The translations under genes and the position numbers were made by a program. Below the pieces are notes generated by a model. The model was given only the letters and a program-made list of their open reading frames with translations, made no database searches and was not told the origin of the DNA. Shown here one piece after another: positions 10,625 to 25,400 of a stretch of DNA of 32,455 bases (positions within the stretch are counted from its first letter, which is position 1; every line of letters starts with the position of its first letter). Location of the stretch: contig JAIQGH010000013.1 in NCBI GenBank assembly GCA_020072655.1, forward strand, positions 1-32,455, written 5' to 3'. The stretch is from Terriglobia bacterium. Lineage in GTDB: Bacteria > Acidobacteriota > Terriglobia > UBA7540.

Positions 10625-10672
10625 TGGAGCCGGCGAAGGGAATCGAACCCCCGACCTACGGTTTACGAAACC
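10625..10672. repeat. left attachment-site direct repeat: 48-bp copy of the 3' part of tRNA-Thr
   Basis: tggagccggcgaagggaatcgaacccccgacctacggtttacgaaacc is identical to 25298-25345, which lies inside the intact tRNA at the other end of the element. The sequences diverge immediately beyond the repeat. Confidence 0.85.
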
Positions 10673-10807
10673 AAATCTCGCCACTGATTCTAAAGAAGAT
10701 CAACAACTTACCTCGGTAAAACGCGAACAAATCCGGCAAAACCCGCAACCCCCGCGCAACCAGACTCCAACCAATTCAACGCTCGACCGAGGGATGAAGG
10801 GTGCGAA

Positions 10808-11083
10808 ATGACCTGCGCTTATTTGAAATGCGGGCAGGTATTCGAGCCTCGAAAGGCAGGGCAGAAATACCACACTTCAACGTGCAGGGAGAAGGCTCGA
10901 AACGAGCGGTATCCAGTCGTGCGGCTTGCGGCCCCGAAGGATGCTGTACGACCCTGTGTAACCACGGCAGGACGCCTCGTAGGCGAACGATTGAGCAGGG
11001 ATTCGTGTCTAGCATCGAGAATTTTCCGAGAGGCCGCAGAATGGCTAAGAATCCAGGGAATGGTGAACGGGTGTCGATGCTAG
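10808..11083 (+). CDS. small Zn-ribbon-like hypothetical protein
   Basis: 91 aa with a C-x4-C ... H-x3-C arrangement (CAYLKCGQ...YHTSTCREKA). First gene inside the element. Confidence 0.35.
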   Translation: MTCAYLKCGQVFEPRKAGQKYHTSTCREKARNERYPVVRLAAPKDAVRPCVTTAGRLVGERLSRDSCLASRIFREAAEWLRIQGMVNGCRC

Positions 11084-11187
11084 CGGCAGGAGGCTAATTG
11101 TGGAATCTAGCGGGCTTCAGAAGTCCTTTCCGCTGGACAGGCAAGCACGCAGATGTTATAGCGGGACTGTTAGGAGACGATGGAGCG

Positions 11188-11601
11188 ATGGCAGACGTTG
11201 AAACACTCACCAAAGACGAGTTGAAGGCGAGGATGGGCACAGACCGCCGCTGGACGCTGAGAGTCCTCGACCCTTCAGAGAGGCATCTCGCCAAAGACCC
11301 TGGAAATGTCCCCTGGCCGGAAGACTGCCTGATTGTGGCTGCCTTTGACGACCAAGACGTTCTGGTCGGAAGAATGGCGCTGATTGCTATAGCACACATC
11401 GAAGGAACCTGGGTAGCTCCTGAATATCGCGGTACGACGTTGCCTTTGAGGATGATTCAGCGCATGGAGTCTGAAATTCGGAAACTCGGTAGGACACACG
11501 TTTTCGCCTACATTCCCAAGGAAGACACGAAACTTTTGGAATACGCGGAGAAGATCGGGTACCAAGAGTTTCCGTGCAAGGTGTACGTGAAGGAGCTTTA
11601 A
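11188..11601 (+). CDS. GNAT-family N-acetyltransferase
   Basis: Acetyl-CoA binding motif A-like segment (WVAPEYRGTTLPLRMIQRMESEIRKLG). Start chosen at the ATG with an AGGAGA RBS 9 nt upstream. The ORF opens at 11098. Confidence 0.5.
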   Translation: MADVETLTKDELKARMGTDRRWTLRVLDPSERHLAKDPGNVPWPEDCLIVAAFDDQDVLVGRMALIAIAHIEGTWVAPEYRGTTLPLRMIQRMESEIRKLGRTHVFAYIPKEDTKLLEYAEKIGYQEFPCKVYVKEL

Positions 11602-22521: not shown

Positions 22522-23849
22522 AGGAGCTACTTCCCTGCAACGTTGAAGTCGAGAGGGCTCTCCTCGGGGCAATCCTGCTGGATAACACCTATCTCTATGT
22601 CGCCGCCGAGCGCCTTTCTCGGGACGATTTCTTCTCAGAAGCGAACCGCCTGTGCTGGGACGCCATGAAAGCGCTGATCGAGAAGCGAGTCCAGGCCGAC
22701 ACCGTGACCGTGATCGCTGAGCTTGAGCGGCAGGGGTTTCTTGAGAAGTGCGGGGGCGCCGTCCGCGTCTGTGCTCTACCAGATGGTGTTCCAATCGGGC
22801 CGGGTACGCCCATTCCCGATTACTGCCACATCATCCACGAGGGATCAGCGAAACGTAAAATTCTCAACCTGTCGCAAAAAGTCGTGGCGGAGGTGGCGGA
22901 CGGCGTAGGGAGTACCGAGATTATTGAAGCCGCCGAGTCGGTGATGGCGGAGATTCGTGGAGAGGAAGAGAAGGCCAGTCGGGGGGCCATGCCGATTTCA
23001 GAACTCGTGACCGAGTGTCTGCCCATCCTCGACCACATGAGCGGGAAAGGCGTCAGGCTTGGAATCCCTTCAGGCTTTGCGGACCTGGACGCGCTGACGG
23101 GGGGCTTCGTGCCCAGCGACATGGTGATTTTAGCGGGACGGCCTTCAGAGGGGAAGACTGCGCTCGCCCTTGAGTTTCTGTTGCGCGCCGCGAAAGCAGG
23201 GCATCCCGTTGCTATGTTCTCCCTCGAAATGAGCCGCACTTCGCTAGTGCTCCGGCTGCTCTGCCGTGAGGCAAGGATAGATCACCACAAACTGCGAACT
23301 GGGTTTCTCAGCCGGGAAGAGTGGGGGCAGCTTTCCAATTCCCTTTCGACTGTACGGAAACTTCCGATCTGGGTAGATGACCGGGCGGATGCTTCAGCCT
23401 CGGGCCTGCGCTGGCGGATTCGTTCCCTCGCGCATCGGGCGGCTGTGAAGTTGGTTGTTGTGGACTATCTCCAACTTGTTCGAGCAAAAGCAGAGAATCG
23501 AACCCAGGAAGTGACGAAGATTTCGCTGGAGCTGAAGGCGGCTGCGCGCGACCTAGGAGAAATCTGCGGCGGCACGCTGATCGCAGTTTCTCAACTGAAC
23601 CGCATCGCCGCGAATGAGAGGCCGCGCCTTCATCACCTGCGAGAGAGCGGCCAACTCGAACAGGACGCAGATGTCGTGTTGTTGATCTCGAACGCAGAAC
23701 CGGCGGAAAACGGCCAGGAAAAGCCGAACACGAAAATTATCGACGTGACAAAGCAGCGAAATGGGCCGTGCGGCGATTTCCCATTGACCTTCCTGCCGCG
23801 ATGGGTGGGCTTTGAGGACTACATCCCGGAAGAGGTGACGCTGCCCTGA
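22518..23849 (+). CDS. dnaB: replicative DNA helicase, DnaB family
   Basis: The N-terminal DnaB domain (VEVERALLGAILLDNTYLYVAAERLSRDDFFSEANRLCWDAM) is present. The RecA-like domain has Walker A AGRPSEGKTALALEF, and the DYLQLV motif is also present. Confidence 0.85.
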   Translation: MKELLPCNVEVERALLGAILLDNTYLYVAAERLSRDDFFSEANRLCWDAMKALIEKRVQADTVTVIAELERQGFLEKCGGAVRVCALPDGVPIGPGTPIPDYCHIIHEGSAKRKILNLSQKVVAEVADGVGSTEIIEAAESVMAEIRGEEEKASRGAMPISELVTECLPILDHMSGKGVRLGIPSGFADLDALTGGFVPSDMVILAGRPSEGKTALALEFLLRAAKAGHPVAMFSLEMSRTSLVLRLLCREARIDHHKLRTGFLSREEWGQLSNSLSTVRKLPIWVDDRADASASGLRWRIRSLAHRAAVKLVVVDYLQLVRAKAENRTQEVTKISLELKAAARDLGEICGGTLIAVSQLNRIAANERPRLHHLRESGQLEQDADVVLLISNAEPAENGQEKPNTKIIDVTKQRNGPCGDFPLTFLPRWVGFEDYIPEEVTLP

Positions 23850-23884
23850 ACGCCAAGCACAAGGGCGTTGACAATTCGGCAAGC

Positions 23885-24115
23885 ATGGAGTGGCTGGACC
23901 TTAAGCGGCTCCAGGATTATGCAGCGGTGTCAGAGCGCACGTTGCGCGACTGGATTCGGCTCGAAGTCAACCCCTTGCCAGCGGTTCAGGTGCGCGGAAA
24001 GATTCTGGTGCGGAAATCCGATTTCGACCACTGGCTTGACCAACACAAAGTGAAACCGCTTGACCTTGGGGTTATTGTGGAAGAGTTAGTGGGGGCCGTG
24101 ACGGATGGGCGTTAA
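23885..24115 (+). CDS. xis: excisionase (Xis, HTH_17 family)
   Basis: 76 aa (LKRLQDYAAVSERTLRDWIRLEVNPLPAVQVRGKILVRKSDFDHWL), immediately upstream of and overlapping the integrase start. Confidence 0.55.
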   Translation: MEWLDLKRLQDYAAVSERTLRDWIRLEVNPLPAVQVRGKILVRKSDFDHWLDQHKVKPLDLGVIVEELVGAVTDGR

Positions 24116-25400
24116 GGTCAGAAAGCGCGGCAGCAAGTGGTACGTGGTGATCGACTACCGCGGACGCCGCAAATCGAAGTGCGTCGGCACCCGTGAAGCG
24201 GCCGAGAAGGTCAGGCGCGAGATCGAAGCTAAACTGGCACTGGGGGATATGCGAATCTTCGAGCCAACAGCAGCGCCAACATTCGAGGACTACGCTGATC
24301 GATGGTTTGAGATCCATAAGGCGTCTCGGCTAAAGCACTCCACGGCCCAAGGCTACCAAAGCCTGCTTGAACAACACCTCATTCCTTCCCTTGGCTCACT
24401 GCGGCTCGAGGAAATCACCCGCGAACGGGCGCGCGGACTCGTGGCAGACCTCACGCAGAAGGAACTTTCACCGAGCACGGTCCGCAACGTCGCTGCGCTT
24501 TTGAGAAAAATCCTCAACGAGGCTGTAGAGGACGGCGTAATCGAATCCAATCCCGCCGCCCGCTTGGGCCTGTCAGTGTCGGCGAAGCAACAGCGCCAGG
24601 CTAAGGAATTCCTGAAACCGGATGAAATCCGAGCTCTGCTACAGACCGTCGAAGAAGGCTTCTCAACGTTCTATGCGCTTTTCATGACGCTGGTGCACAC
24701 CGGCACGAGGATCGGTGAAGCTCTGGCGCTCGAATGGGGCGACGTGCAGTTCGGCGAGAATGAGGAAGATCCGAATCGGTACATCATCGTGCGCCGGAAC
24801 TTCACCCACGGCCAGTATGCGACCGTGAAGTCGGGGCGCGAACGGCGCGTCAACATGAGCAAGGTGCTGCGTCGGGTGCTGATGGAACTTCGAGACCGCC
24901 GGATGCTTGAAGGTTTCGCTCAGGGCAGGGAAGAGATCGAGCCGTTGATGTTTCCGAGTCCGACCGGGCGTCCGCTCGACTATTCCTGGTTCAACAAACG
25001 GGTCTGGCACAAGGCGCTAGAAGCGGCGCGACTTCGCCGAGTGACGATCCATGCGCTCAGACACTCCTATGCTTCGTTCCTGATTCTGGCTGGAGCTTCA
25101 CTCGCCTACGTTCGGGATCAGTTGGGGCATTCCAGTATTCAGGTGACCGTGGACGTGTACGGCCACCTGGTCCCTGCGGACAATATCGCGTGGACCGATG
25201 CGCTGAATTGCCTAACAAGTGCGCAACAATCCGCAACCCAGGCGCAACCGGCGTTCGGGGTGGAAGAGAAGAAATCGGCGGAAGTCTTTGAGAATGTTGG
25301 AGCCGGCGAAGGGAATCGAACCCCCGACCTACGGTTTACGAAACCGTTGCTCTACCGACTGAGCTACGCCGGCCCAGATAAAAATGCTCACCCAGCGTAG
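24105..25400 (+). CDS. int: tyrosine-type site-specific integrase (phage integrase family)
   Basis: N-terminal arm-binding domain (KWYVVIDYRGRRKSKCVG), SAM-like core-binding domain, and catalytic domain with R (HTGTRIGEA), HALRHSYASFL and VDVYGHL (Tyr). The nominal ORF continues antisense through the tRNA to a TAG at 25398. The true C-terminus may be earlier. Confidence 0.85.
   Translation: MGVKVRKRGSKWYVVIDYRGRRKSKCVGTREAAEKVRREIEAKLALGDMRIFEPTAAPTFEDYADRWFEIHKASRLKHSTAQGYQSLLEQHLIPSLGSLRLEEITRERARGLVADLTQKELSPSTVRNVAALLRKILNEAVEDGVIESNPAARLGLSVSAKQQRQAKEFLKPDEIRALLQTVEEGFSTFYALFMTLVHTGTRIGEALALEWGDVQFGENEEDPNRYIIVRRNFTHGQYATVKSGRERRVNMSKVLRRVLMELRDRRMLEGFAQGREEIEPLMFPSPTGRPLDYSWFNKRVWHKALEAARLRRVTIHALRHSYASFLILAGASLAYVRDQLGHSSIQVTVDVYGHLVPADNIAWTDALNCLTSAQQSATQAQPAFGVEEKKSAEVFENVGAGEGNRTPDLRFTKPLLYRLSYAGPDKNAHPA
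25298..25345. repeat. right attachment-site direct repeat (inside intact tRNA-Thr)
   Basis: Identical 48 bp to 10625-10672. Confidence 0.85.
25298..25373 (-). tRNA. tRNA-Thr (anticodon CGU)
   Basis: The reverse complement gives GCCGGCGTAGCTCAGTCGGTAGAGCAACGGTTTCGTAAACCGTAGGTCGGGGGTTCGATTCCCTTCGCCGGCTCCA. Acceptor, D and anticodon stems pair canonically. Anticodon loop TTCGTAA gives CGT. GTTCGATTCC is the T-loop and CCA is encoded. Confidence 0.85.

What the first reader, a model, noticed from the sequence alone, without database searches (positions are those of the whole stretch)
10625..25345. Site-specifically integrated ~14.7-kb element in tRNA-Thr(CGU) with exact 48-bp att duplication
An identical 48-mer (tggagccggcgaagggaatcgaacccccgacctacggtttacgaaacc) occurs at 10625-10672 and at 25298-25345. 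The second copy forms the 3' half (CCA end to anticodon stem) of an intact tRNA-Thr on the minus strand. A tyrosine integrase plus excisionase abut that tRNA and read towards it. The sequence between the repeats has AT-rich patches and phage/plasmid-type genes, and the flanks are housekeeping genes. This is the classic signature of an integrase-mediated insertion that regenerates the tRNA 3' end.
Basis: seen in the sequence. Interest (0 to 1): 0.7.

Follow-up and report, generated by a model that had tools for sequence, protein, structure and literature searches.

The report
Integrated mobile element in tRNA-Thr gene
A 14.7-kb phage-like mobile element, with its own integrase, excisionase and replication genes but no recognisable virus-particle genes, has inserted into a threonine tRNA gene of an Acidobacteria-type genome; this is an ordinary, well-understood kind of insertion.

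Summary
An exact 48-bp direct repeat lies at 10625-10672 and 25298-25345. The second copy is nucleotides 29-76 (anticodon stem to CCA) of an intact tRNA-Thr(CGU) on the minus strand. An overlapping excisionase and tyrosine integrase pair reads into it.

Five syntenic metagenome loci carry the same flanks and an identical tRNA-Thr, but none of the about 20 island genes. In a sixth locus, the left end of a related element interrupts the same site. Its alignment to a 92%-identical empty locus stops exactly at the end of the core.

The element carries:
- a phage-type replication module: an O/DnaD-like initiator with three 33-bp iterons inside its own gene, plus a DnaB helicase;
- regulators;
- a RosmerTA-like XRE-M78 protein;
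- a GNAT, an ArdC-N protein, a clamp-loader-like ATPase and a small second tyrosine recombinase.

No capsid, terminase, tail, relaxase or type IV secretion gene was detected. It is therefore a replicative integrative island: satellite-like, or a stripped prophage.

One feature goes beyond the finding. The integrase reading frame runs through the att core, as in phage Mx8. Integration therefore swaps its C-terminus (431 versus a predicted 459 aa). At least 109 of 120 homologues share this layout.

Verdict: a new member of a known kind, of modest interest.

The parts
10625..10672 (.). attL core: displaced 3' fragment of tRNA-Thr(CGU), 48 bp, identical to the attR core
   Evidence: not called as a tRNA
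10726..10761 (+). P'-arm repeat containing CCGCAACCCCCGCGCAAC (10743-10760), 71 nt from the core; candidate arm-type integrase binding site
   Evidence: (D7), 54: the motif occurs only twice in the window, 0.12 expected by chance
10808..11083 (+). small protein (91 aa), phrog_10853, function unknown
11098..11601 (+). GNAT acetyltransferase (cargo)
11603..12322 (+). Gly-rich 239-aa protein with hydrophobic N-terminus, no family match
12787..13062 (-). XRE/Cro-type HTH regulator, divergent from the RHH gene
13478..13612 (+). 44-aa ribbon-helix-helix (RHH_3/CopG) regulator downstream of a promoter-like TTGACA site I read by eye (the promoter scan, did not list it)
13686..14045 (+). 119-aa protein, function unknown
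14114..14449 (+). ArdC N-terminal-domain protein (ssDNA-binding / anti-restriction type)
14516..15391 (+). AAA+ ATPase resembling clamp-loader (RFC / DnaX) subunits
15431..16048 (+). small (205 aa) second tyrosine recombinase, closest to FimB/FimE-type DNA invertases and Xer (below curated cut-offs); box II reads HALKHS
16138..16710 (+). 190-aa protein with a hydrophobic, probably membrane-spanning C-terminus (judged from the sequence, no prediction tool run), function unknown
17023..18153 (+). XRE HTH + M78 (ImmA/IrrE) peptidase fusion; full-length match to the RmrA antitoxin of RosmerTA
   Evidence: PDLC03949, E 2.4e-29
18119..18670 (+). 183-aa unknown protein overlapping the end of the RmrA-like gene; candidate toxin partner by position only
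   Evidence: no family match, poor model
19075..19485 (+). 136-aa protein with signal-peptide-like N-terminus, function unknown
19542..19775 (-). MerR/HTH_17-type regulator, followed by a 15-bp-stem terminator-like hairpin at 19520-19553
20013..20825 (+). 270-aa unknown protein, first gene of the rightward operon
20945..21217 (+). HTH_17 DNA-binding protein
21320..21589 (+). 89-aa unknown protein
21586..22521 (+). replication initiator, lambda O-like / DnaD-like (winged HTH)
   Evidence: phrog_7498 E 3.4e-27; phrog_391 E 2.9e-24
21916..22014 (+). three tandem 33-bp partly palindromic repeats inside the initiator gene: candidate origin iterons
   Evidence: (D1)
22518..23849 (+). DnaB-type replicative helicase
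   Evidence: (DnaB_C E 4.8e-73)
23885..24115 (+). excisionase / recombination directionality factor (HTH_17), overlaps the int start by 11 nt
24105..25400 (+). tyrosine integrase, 431 aa in the integrated state; the ORF runs through the P-arm motif, the attR core and the whole tRNA antisense
25214..25249 (+). P-arm repeat containing CCGCAACCCAGGCGCAAC (25231-25248), 50 nt from the core, inside the int ORF (peptide QQSATQAQP)
25298..25345 (.). attR core, the regenerated 3' part of the tRNA
25298..25373 (-). intact tRNA-Thr(CGU), the integration target
   Evidence: identical in relatives
10362..10519 (-). flank scar: remnant (C-terminal 47 aa) of the SASA-type esterase gene that is full length in relatives

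Best explanation
The segment 10673-25345 is a 14.67-kb mobile element. It entered the chromosome by integrase-mediated site-specific recombination between its attP and the 3' part of the tRNA-Thr(CGU) gene.

**Integration (largely shown).**
- The element carries a copy of tRNA nucleotides 29-76. Integration therefore regenerates an intact tRNA at attR and leaves the displaced original fragment at attL.
- The identity block begins in the anticodon stem. Strand exchange most likely occurs in the anticodon-loop region, the 'anticodon-centred' class of tRNA att sites (inferred).
- attP lies inside the int reading frame. Int is 431 aa with a tRNA-antisense tail when integrated, and is predicted to be 459 aa with a different last 42 residues when excised.
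- A conserved motif, CCGCAACCCNNGCGCAAC, lies on each side of the core. These two copies are the likely arm-type Int sites (inferred).

**Life cycle after excision (inferred).**
- The xis-int pair sits at the end of a long rightward operon: unknown protein, HTH_17, small unknown protein, Rep, DnaB, Xis, Int. The element's HTH, RHH and XRE-M78 regulators presumably control it.
- After excision, the circle would replicate from the 33-bp iterons inside the O/DnaD-like initiator gene, using the element's own DnaB helicase.
- No virion, packaging or conjugation genes are detectable. Spread between cells must therefore depend on something else, most plausibly a helper phage (satellite-like). Alternatively, the element is a prophage that has lost its structural genes.

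**Cargo.** A RosmerTA-like XRE-M78 module, a GNAT, an ArdC-N protein, a clamp-loader-like ATPase and a second small tyrosine recombinase.
For: **Shown**
- Exact 48-bp direct repeat, and an intact tRNA at one end only.
- Int and Xis lie at the tRNA-proximal end. Positions matching the catalytic R, K, H-x-x-R, H and Y residues are invariant in a 17-member alignment: R202, K242, H316, R319, H342, Y352.
- Island genes are absent from five syntenic relatives; four of them carry an identical tRNA.
- In the occupied/empty pair L015 and L017 (92% identity), the alignment breaks exactly at the end of the core.
- The same tRNA-Thr site holds related Int-Xis pairs with different cargo in L002-L005 (Int 84% identical) and in the P0005 contig (55%).
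- An attP-type junction (Int, then the same core, then non-tRNA sequence sharing GATCAACAACTTA with the window's left end) exists in relative L176. No tRNA is present on that contig.
- Composition is foreign to the flanks.
- Replication module and iterons.
- 99.9-100% identical copies of parts of the element in three independent sequencing runs.
- The arm motif occurs exactly twice in the window, flanking the core, and recurs with the same codons in the int 3' ends of L002 and L092.
- 109 of 120 homologues end in the same-frame antisense-tRNA peptide.
- In L092 the int ORF was checked and overlaps tRNA-Met.
- IMG/VR contig L096 has the same Rep, DnaB, Xis, Int order plus a major head protein, so the backbone is phage-derived.

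**From the literature**
- The rule that a regenerated tDNA and a displaced fragment mark island ends, and the anticodon-centred att class: PMC4383910.
- Mx8 attP inside int: PMC6070905.
Against: - No empty site from the same species, and no attP or attB junction for this exact element, was recovered. Present-day mobility is therefore not shown.
- The left chromosomal flank is rearranged: an esterase remnant is followed by about 125 nt with no homologue. The ancestral attB context cannot be rebuilt exactly.
- The region between DUF4010 and the tRNA varies in size among relatives even without an island (about 2-6 kb). This locus is variable for other reasons too.
- The transfer mechanism is unknown. 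Eight island ORFs have no family match.
- The arm-site assignment rests on a motif that is also a conserved peptide, with DNA available for only three lineages. The P' arm of L176 lacks the motif.
Confidence: 0.85

Rival explanations
1. Cryptic prophage remnant. A once complete temperate phage integrated at tRNA-Thr, then lost its structural and lysis genes by internal deletion. It is now an immobile passenger.
For: - No virion genes were detected.
- Relative L096, with the same Rep-DnaB-Xis-Int backbone, does encode a major head protein.
- A deletion scar lies just outside attL.
Against: - int, xis, rep and dnaB are all full-length open frames.
- The unconstrained attL copy is still 48/48 identical.
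- The left half holds coherent non-phage cargo rather than gene fragments.
- Near-identical copies occur in three datasets.
- No internal att remnant or pseudogene pattern was seen.
Confidence: 0.25
2. Phage satellite (PICI-like). A virion-less island that excises, replicates from its own origin and is packaged by a helper phage.
For: - Its size (14.7 kb) and gene set fit: int, xis, HTH regulators, and an autonomous initiator with iterons plus a helicase.
- No structural genes.
- The same att site is reused by relatives with shuffled cargo.
- It carries a defence-type module, as many satellites do.
Against: - No small terminase, capsid-size-redirection or packaging-interference gene, and no cos or pac site, was recognised.
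- The replication proteins are O-like plus DnaB, not the Pri-Rep of described PICIs.
- No helper phage is known.
- No close relative was found in IMG/VR.
Confidence: 0.25
3. Integrated plasmid-like episome, or a mobilisable element moved by conjugation.
For: - It encodes an ArdC-N ssDNA-binding protein of the type common on conjugative plasmids.
- It has an autonomous replication module.
- Relative L176 carries a RepB_primase-type plasmid replication gene next to a family integrase.
Against: - No relaxase, coupling protein, FtsK-like translocase or type IV secretion gene was found by Pfam, PHROGs or NCBIfam.
- The ArdC-N family also occurs in phages (phrog_7245).
Confidence: 0.1
4. Not an insertion. 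The 48-bp repeat is a chance or duplicative copy of part of the tRNA, and the intervening genes are native.
For: None beyond the variability of this intergenic region among relatives.
Against: - No shuffle out of 100 gave any match.
- The integrase is adjacent.
- The genes are absent from all syntenic relatives.
- Composition shifts across the island.
- A precise occupied/empty breakpoint exists in L015 and L017.
Confidence: 0.01

Closest known systems
tRNA-integrated genomic islands as catalogued by Islander (tyrosine-integrase islands bounded by a regenerated tDNA and its displaced 3' fragment; anticodon-centred att class), PMC4383910
   Same: It has an intact tRNA at one end and a displaced 3' fragment in direct orientation at the other. 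A tyrosine integrase lies inside, next to the tRNA. The identity block starts at the anticodon stem. The island is absent from relatives.
   Different: Nothing essential. The host lineage (Acidobacteria-type, uncultured) and the cargo are new. The integrase ORF runs through the tRNA.
Myxococcus phage Mx8 (and Mx9) integration system, with attP inside the int coding sequence (PMC6070905)
   Same: The attP core lies within the int ORF. Integration therefore creates a recombinant int with a new 3' end. Here that is 431 aa integrated against 459 aa predicted for the excised form.
   Different: Only the last 14 (integrated) or 42 (excised) residues differ here, well after the catalytic Tyr. No functional effect has been tested. 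Mx8 is a complete phage. Sequence relatedness to Mx8 Int was not tested; the best phage integrase hits are at most 32% identical, and Mx8 is not among the 20 listed.
Phage-inducible chromosomal islands (PICIs) and other phage satellites
   Same: Similar size (about 15 kb), with int and xis, HTH regulators, and its own initiator with an iteron origin. It has no virion genes, carries defence-type cargo, and integrates at a specific site.
   Different: No terS, ppi, cpm or other packaging-hijack gene was recognised. Replication uses an O-like initiator plus DnaB rather than Pri-Rep. int sits at the distal end of a rightward operon. No helper is known.
Lambda-type replication module (O initiator with the origin iterons inside the O gene)
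   Same: A winged-HTH O/DnaD-like initiator has three tandem 33-bp repeats inside its own coding sequence. A helicase-function gene follows immediately.
   Different: The element encodes a full DnaB-type helicase instead of a P-type loader that recruits the host DnaB. Origin function is inferred only.
RosmerTA (RmrT toxin with RmrA HTH-M78 protease antitoxin) and ImmR/ImmA of ICEBs1 (PMC10440598)
   Same: The 376-aa XRE HTH + M78 protein matches RmrA profiles over their full length (E 2.4e-29). A small overlapping downstream ORF occupies the partner position.
   Different: The partner matches no RmrT model or any other family. The protein could equally be the element's own repressor and anti-repressor, in the manner of ImmR/ImmA. 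No phenotype has been tested.

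Membership tests
tRNA-integrated genomic island (Islander definition) | Intact tDNA plus a displaced tDNA fragment in direct orientation on the same replicon | tested here: met
   48/48 identical fragment, 14,673 bp from the intact tRNA-Thr
tRNA-integrated genomic island (Islander definition) | Tyrosine integrase (PF00589, not Xer or integron type) inside the island, adjacent to the tDNA | tested here: met
   Int at 24105-25400, PF00589 E 1e-22, with SAM-like N-terminal domains
tRNA-integrated genomic island (Islander definition) | Island absent from related genomes that keep the flanks (empty site) | tested here: met
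   L006, L010, L012, L017 and L020 lack all island genes. L015 and L017 form an occupied/empty pair. No same-species empty site was found.
Lambda-type (arm-binding) tyrosine integrase system | Catalytic R-K-H-R-H/W-Y residues | tested here: met
   Positions matching the canonical catalytic residues (assigned from motif context, not by alignment to a reference integrase) are invariant: R202, K242, H316, R319, H342, Y352
Lambda-type (arm-binding) tyrosine integrase system | Arm-type binding sites flanking the core, and a recombination directionality factor | tested here: inconclusive
   The motif CCGCAACCCNNGCGCAAC occurs once on each side of the core and nowhere else. It is conserved in L002 and L092 but not in the P' arm of L176. 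The HTH_17 Xis is present. Binding was not tested.
Mx8-type int-attP overlap | attP core lies inside the int ORF, so integration changes the Int C-terminus | tested here: met
   The ORF reads through the core. The tail is 431 aa integrated and 459 aa in the reconstructed excised form. The attP-form ORF was observed in relative L176, at 480 aa.
Mx8-type int-attP overlap | The altered C-terminus changes integrase activity or specificity | not testable with these tools
   Needs biochemistry or genetics
Complete temperate tailed prophage | Major capsid, portal, terminase and tail genes | tested here: not met
   No hit at the thresholds used in Pfam, PHROGs or NCBIfam for any ORF submitted (20 ORFs to Pfam and PHROGs, 10 to NCBIfam; a few small ORFs, e.g. 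the 33-aa ORF at about 12331-12431, were not scanned). Eight ORFs remain unassigned.
ICE / IME (conjugative or mobilisable integrative element) | Relaxase, coupling protein or FtsK-like translocase, type IV secretion genes | tested here: not met
   None detected. Only an ArdC-N domain protein was found.
PICI-type phage satellite | Size about 7-18 kb, int, regulator, own replication initiator and origin, no virion genes | tested here: met
PICI-type phage satellite | Packaging-hijack genes (terS, ppi, cpm/rpp or capsid genes) and helper-dependent induction | tested here: not met
   No such family was matched. Helper dependence is not testable here.
RosmerTA defence / toxin-antitoxin system | RmrA: HTH + M78 (ImmA) protease antitoxin | tested here: met
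   PDLC03949 E 2.4e-29 over residues 14-368; Pfam HTH_3 and Peptidase_M78
RosmerTA defence / toxin-antitoxin system | Adjacent RmrT toxin, and anti-phage activity | tested here: inconclusive
   The adjacent 183-aa ORF has no RmrT, Pfam or PDB match. The single-sequence model has pLDDT 39. Activity is not testable here.

The most novel reading that the evidence does not exclude
The island's integrase belongs to a large, apparently undescribed lineage found mostly in environmental metagenome contigs and MAGs; I placed only a few members taxonomically, and those sit on Acidobacteria-type flanks. In this lineage, attP lies inside the int reading frame in a fixed register: a conserved arm motif, the tRNA-derived core and, in the excised form of this element, the P' arm.

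Every integration or excision would then rewrite the integrase C-terminus, an Mx8-like covalent switch that could bias directionality. Target switching between tRNAs would then need only a change of the core cassette. In support, an 87%-identical integrase (L177) carries a core I read as the tRNA-Arg(CCU) 3' half instead of tRNA-Thr(CGU).

On this reading, the element itself would be a virion-less satellite built on that backbone.
Probability: 0.25. Interest if true: 0.5.

Novelty: new member of a known kind. Interest (0 to 1): 0.3.

Why it matters
As an insertion it is textbook. Its value is mostly descriptive.

- It precisely delimits a mobile element, its att sites and a reusable tRNA-Thr hot spot in a poorly studied, uncultured Acidobacteria-type lineage.
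- It shows what such elements carry there: a candidate RosmerTA defence module, and a self-contained initiator and helicase replication module.
- The wider point is the integrase family. Its reading frame consistently spans its own attachment site, and closely related members carry different tRNA cores. This would be a convenient natural system for studying how integrases change target, and whether the C-terminal swap regulates directionality as proposed for Mx8.
- The attP/attB pair (48-bp core plus about 100-bp arms) could also become an integration tool for Acidobacteria, where genetic tools are scarce as far as I know.

Tried and rejected
1. A scan of species-representative genomes with the right-flank DUF6599 protein gave one 49%-identical locus with no tRNA, so it was uninformative.
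2. An exact empty-junction pattern searched in metagenome contigs gave 0 hits.
3. Exact-sequence look-ups of the window's DUF4010 protein and its Int found nothing on record.
4. No close relative of Int or Rep was found in IMG/VR. An arm-motif scan of IMG/VR gave one uninformative contig, L095.
5. Logan contigs of the same element break near the att core. None spans an attP or attB junction.
6. I looked for inverted repeats that could be the substrate of the small FimB-like recombinase. Only weak pairs of 71-93% complementarity turned up, none convincing.
7. I looked for internal att remnants that would indicate a composite or tandem island. The best local alignment score, 13, falls within the shuffled range of 11-16. 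A 12-nt match at 18087 is treated as chance.
8. A PIN-like fold for ORF 18119-18670 has no Pfam or PDB support, and the single-sequence AlphaFold model was unusable at pLDDT 39. No fold search was run.
9. PDB sequence searches for the 313-aa and 239-aa unknown proteins gave nothing.
10. Rfam found only the tRNA.
11. The unknown proteins upstream of Rep in the window and in L088 showed no similarity.

Full report
**1. The observation**

Both copies are on the same strand with no mismatch, and none of 100 dinucleotide-preserving shuffles produced any match. Identity does not extend by a single base on either side. Start-to-start spacing is 14,673 bp.

ARAGORN finds one tRNA in the window: tRNA-Thr, anticodon CGT, at 25298-25373 on the minus strand. 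Rfam confirms it at 72.7 bits and finds no other RNA family. The repeat is the 3' 48 nt of this 76-nt gene. It runs from three base pairs into the 5' strand of the anticodon stem, through the anticodon loop, variable region, T arm and acceptor strand, to the encoded CCA. The copy at 10625 is not a tRNA.

**2. Gene content between the repeats**

Reading rightwards:

| Coordinates | Strand | Product |
|---|---|---|
| 10808-11083 | + | 91-aa protein of unknown function (phrog_10853) |
| 11098-11601 | + | GNAT acetyltransferase |
| 11603-12322 | + | Gly-rich 239-aa protein, no family match |
| 12787-13062 | - | XRE-type HTH regulator |
| 13478-13612 | + | 44-aa ribbon-helix-helix protein |
| 13686-14045 | + | unknown protein |
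| 14114-14449 | + | ArdC-N domain protein |
| 14516-15391 | + | clamp-loader-like AAA+ ATPase |
| 15431-16048 | + | 205-aa tyrosine recombinase, closest to FimB/FimE invertases and Xer |
| 16138-16710 | + | 190-aa protein with a hydrophobic C-terminus |
| 17023-18153 | + | XRE HTH + M78 peptidase fusion |
| 18119-18670 | + | overlapping 183-aa unknown ORF |
| 19075-19485 | + | small protein with a signal-peptide-like N-terminus |
| 19542-19775 | - | MerR/HTH_17 regulator |
| 20013-20825 | + | unknown protein |
| 20945-21217 | + | HTH_17 protein |
| 21320-21589 | + | small unknown protein |
| 21586-22521 | + | lambda O-like / DnaD-like replication initiator |
| 22518-23849 | + | DnaB-type helicase |
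| 23885-24115 | + | HTH_17 excisionase |
| 24105-25400 | + | tyrosine integrase |

- The XRE HTH and the RHH protein are divergent, across an AT-rich spacer.
- The XRE-M78 fusion matches RmrA profiles over their whole length (E 2.4e-29).
- The genes from 20013 to the integrase form a rightward block.
- Three tandem 33-bp, partly palindromic repeats lie inside the initiator gene at 21916-22014. This is the arrangement of the lambda origin inside gene O.
- No capsid, portal, terminase, tail, lysis, relaxase, coupling-protein or type IV secretion family was matched at the thresholds used.
- Eight ORFs remain unassigned.

The interior is 55.8% G+C against 60.6% and 61.0% in the flanks. GC3 is 0.55-0.69 for most island genes and 0.70-0.81 for flank genes; the exception is the small recombinase at 0.75. 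The tetranucleotide distance from the flank profile roughly doubles across the island.

**3. Is it an insertion?**

I used the left-flank MgtC/DUF4010 protein to fetch related metagenome loci. About thirty loci share the left-flank synteny: DUF6677, unknown gene, flotillin, unknown gene, DUF4010. Five of them (L006, L010, L012, L017, L020) extend across the site, into tRNA-Thr(CGU), DUF6599, AMIN-amidase and SLT.

- None of these loci encodes any island protein. The only 'Int' hit is the antisense tRNA itself.
- The 76-nt tRNA is identical to the window's in L006, L010, L012 and L017. L020's tRNA-Thr matches the core at 89.6%.
- Island DNA matches nothing in these loci.

L015 is a contig that ends at the site. 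It holds the same 48-bp partial tRNA, followed by 62 nt that are 89% identical to the window's left island end. L015 and the empty locus L017 are 92% identical, and their alignment stops exactly at the last base of the core (L015 position 9409, L017 position 6672). That is a clean occupied/empty pair for this element family.

The same tRNA-Thr site, next to the DUF6599 gene, is also occupied elsewhere. L002-L005 carry an 84%-identical Int with Xis and different cargo (C39 peptidase, TPR proteins). Another contig carries a 55%-identical Int. The site is therefore a recurrent target.

No same-species empty site was found. The exact empty-junction pattern had no metagenome hit, and the closest relative, L006, is about 77-83% identical in DNA.

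**4. The left flank**

In relatives, a 519-aa SASA-type esterase gene lies between the unnamed gene next to DUF4010 and the tRNA. In L006 and L035 an M61 peptidase and an Old-Yellow-Enzyme-like gene follow it as well.

The window keeps only the last 47 codons of the esterase (10379-10519 by tblastn; the DNA-level match spans 10362-10495). About 125 nt with no homologue follow. Then come the five bases GGGGA, which also precede the tRNA 3' end in L006.

About 1.4 kb of chromosome has therefore been lost next to attL. I cannot tell whether this relates to the island.

**5. The integrase and its attachment site**

The int ORF does not stop before the att core. It reads through the P-side arm, the 48-bp core and the entire tRNA gene antisense (tail ...GAGEGNRTPDLRFTKPLLYRLSYAGPDKNAHPA). 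It ends 27 nt beyond the tRNA.

Joining the element's ends in silico gives an attP-form ORF of 459 aa. It is identical to the integrated form up to ...RFTKP and then continues through the left end of the island.

This is the situation described for Myxococcus phage Mx8. There attP lies within int, and integration creates a recombinant gene with a new 3' end (PMC6070905).

It is a family trait:
- Of the 120 best homologues (45-90% identity), 109 end with the same-frame antisense translation of a tRNA T-loop-to-anticodon segment. They fall into 27 peptide variants (10-residue strings) whose anticodon-region endings suggest several different target tRNAs (my reading; only Thr and Met were confirmed with ARAGORN). 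At least four more read a tRNA in another frame.
- For L092, the overlap of the ORF with tRNA-Met was verified on DNA.
- L176, with a 51%-identical Int, shows the predicted attP-type arrangement directly: Int, the same tRNA-Thr core, then non-tRNA sequence that shares GATCAACAACTTA with the window's left end. That contig has no tRNA, and its Int ORF is 480 aa. It is either an excised form or the internal junction of a tandem array.
- L177 carries an 87%-identical Int (85% in DNA) whose core I read as the 3' half of tRNA-Arg(CCU). It shares the anticodon stem and T arm with tRNA-Thr(CGU) (35 nt at 91%). Close relatives therefore differ in target mainly through the core.

A motif, CCGCAACCCNNGCGCAAC, occurs exactly twice in the window against 0.12 expected. 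Both copies are in the same orientation, 71 nt to the right of the attL core and 50 nt to the left of the attR core. The right copy encodes the peptide QQSATQAQP, which is conserved in most homologues. It uses the same codons in the window, L002 and L092.

I read these as arm-type Int sites. That is an inference: DNA is available for only three lineages, and the P' arm of L176 lacks the motif.

Positions corresponding to the catalytic R, K, H-x-x-R, H and Y residues are invariant in a 17-member alignment. The best matches among sequenced phages are at most 32% identical.

**6. What kind of element**

The backbone is phage-like: HTH_17, O/DnaD-like initiator with iterons, helicase function, Xis, Int, tRNA.
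- L088, a 47%-identical initiator homologue, has the same order with an IstB/DnaC-like protein in place of DnaB, next to tRNA-Ser.
- IMG/VR contig L096 has initiator, DnaB, Xis and a 47%-identical Int in the same order, together with a major head protein (E 4.4e-51).

The window's element lacks any recognisable virion or conjugation gene. It is best described as a replicative integrative island on a phage-derived backbone.

All its recombination and replication genes are intact. The unconstrained attL copy is still perfect. Parts of the element recur at 99.9-100% identity in three independent sequencing runs. I therefore think it is still functional rather than decayed, but no junction evidence for excision was obtained.

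Whether it is a helper-dependent satellite, a stripped prophage or something else cannot be decided here.

**7. Proposed mechanism**

*Shown:* the att structure, the gene set, absence from relatives, and the family-wide overlap of int and att.

*Inferred:*
- Int, with a host bending protein, recombined attP with the anticodon-loop region of tRNA-Thr. The element-borne copy of nucleotides 29-76 restored the gene. This is the anticodon-centred class in PMC4383910.
- The regulators (XRE HTH, RHH, MerR-like, XRE-M78) keep the rightward operon silent.
- On derepression, Xis and Int excise a circle. Int then acquires the longer tail. The initiator binds the 33-bp iterons and loads the element's DnaB.
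- The XRE-M78 protein is either the antitoxin of a RosmerTA-type defence module (PMC10440598) or an ImmR/ImmA-style repressor and anti-repressor of the element.

**8. Verdict**

The finding is real and correctly interpreted. It is a new member of a very well-known kind.

Three things go beyond the routine:
- the Mx8-like position of attP inside a widespread, uncharacterised integrase lineage;
- the evidence for tRNA-target switching between near-identical integrases;
- the virion-less, self-replicating architecture.

Interest is modest.

Noticed in passing
window 10362-10624: The SASA-type esterase gene is full length (about 519 aa) next to the tRNA in relatives. In the window it survives only as its last 47 codons, followed by about 125 nt with no homologue anywhere in the fetched loci. 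About 1.4 kb has been deleted directly outside attL.
   Followed up: partly
window 24105-25400; proteins P0001-P0120: The integrase ORF reads antisense through the whole tRNA. In 109 of 120 homologues the ORF ends in a same-frame antisense-tRNA peptide. These fall into 27 peptide variants (10-residue strings) whose anticodon-region endings suggest several different tRNAs. At least four more use another frame.
   Followed up: yes
L177 1650-1900: An integrase 87% identical to the window's carries a core that reads as the 3' half of tRNA-Arg(CCU) instead of tRNA-Thr(CGU). The contig has no full tRNA. This looks like target switching by core replacement between tRNAs with near-identical anticodon stems and T arms.
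   Followed up: partly
L176 4547-6100: An attP-type junction in a relative: a 51%-identical Int (480 aa) reads through the same tRNA-Thr core into non-tRNA sequence resembling the window's left end. The cargo includes RepB_primase and a DUF1016/YhcG nuclease-like gene. No terminal overlap was found, so circularity is not shown.
   Followed up: partly
L096 (IMGVR_UViG_3300038423_000351) 1520-11141: This IMG/VR contig has the same initiator, DnaB, Xis, Int order (Int 47% identical). It also carries a major head protein (E 4.4e-51) and a dCMP deaminase. The first 5.2 kb of the contig was not fetched.
   Followed up: partly
window 15431-16048: The second, small tyrosine recombinase (205 aa) is closest to FimB/FimE-type invertases. 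It has Lys where the second catalytic Arg is expected (HALKHS). Its GC3 (0.75) is host-like, unlike the rest of the island. No convincing inverted-repeat substrate was found nearby.
   Followed up: partly
window 17023-18670: An XRE-M78 fusion matches RmrA of RosmerTA over its full length. An overlapping 183-aa ORF follows that matches nothing. This is a candidate defence or toxin-antitoxin pair with an unclassified toxin.
   Followed up: partly
window 21916-22014: Three tandem 33-bp repeats (consensus AGTGATAGTCGGAAAACCGACGATCACAGGGGC, each largely palindromic) lie inside the initiator gene. They encode a repeated ...RKTDDH... peptide.
   Followed up: partly
L002/L003 1-5725; contig of P0005: The same tRNA-Thr / DUF6599 site is occupied in other genomes by related Int-Xis pairs with quite different cargo (C39 peptidase and TPR proteins, or a very short island). 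It is an integration hot spot with cargo turnover.
   Followed up: partly
window 5165-5263 and 7777-7886: Short tandem repeats of 7-16 bp period lie in or next to the gaps between ORFs of the left chromosomal flank, downstream of the DUF6677 and flotillin genes; the 7777-7809 array overlaps the 3' end of the flotillin ORF (6198-7814). Not examined.
   Followed up: no
window 12331-12431: A 33-aa Gly-rich ORF, called as a gene in the Logan contigs, lies directly after the Gly-rich 239-aa protein. Both follow the GNAT gene. Function unknown.
   Followed up: no
L086, L087, L089-L091: Parts of the element recur at 99.9-100% identity in runs SRR29366193, SRR29366192 and SRR15677230. L089 starts 10 nt from the att core. 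This fits an assembly-graph branch at the repeat.
   Followed up: partly
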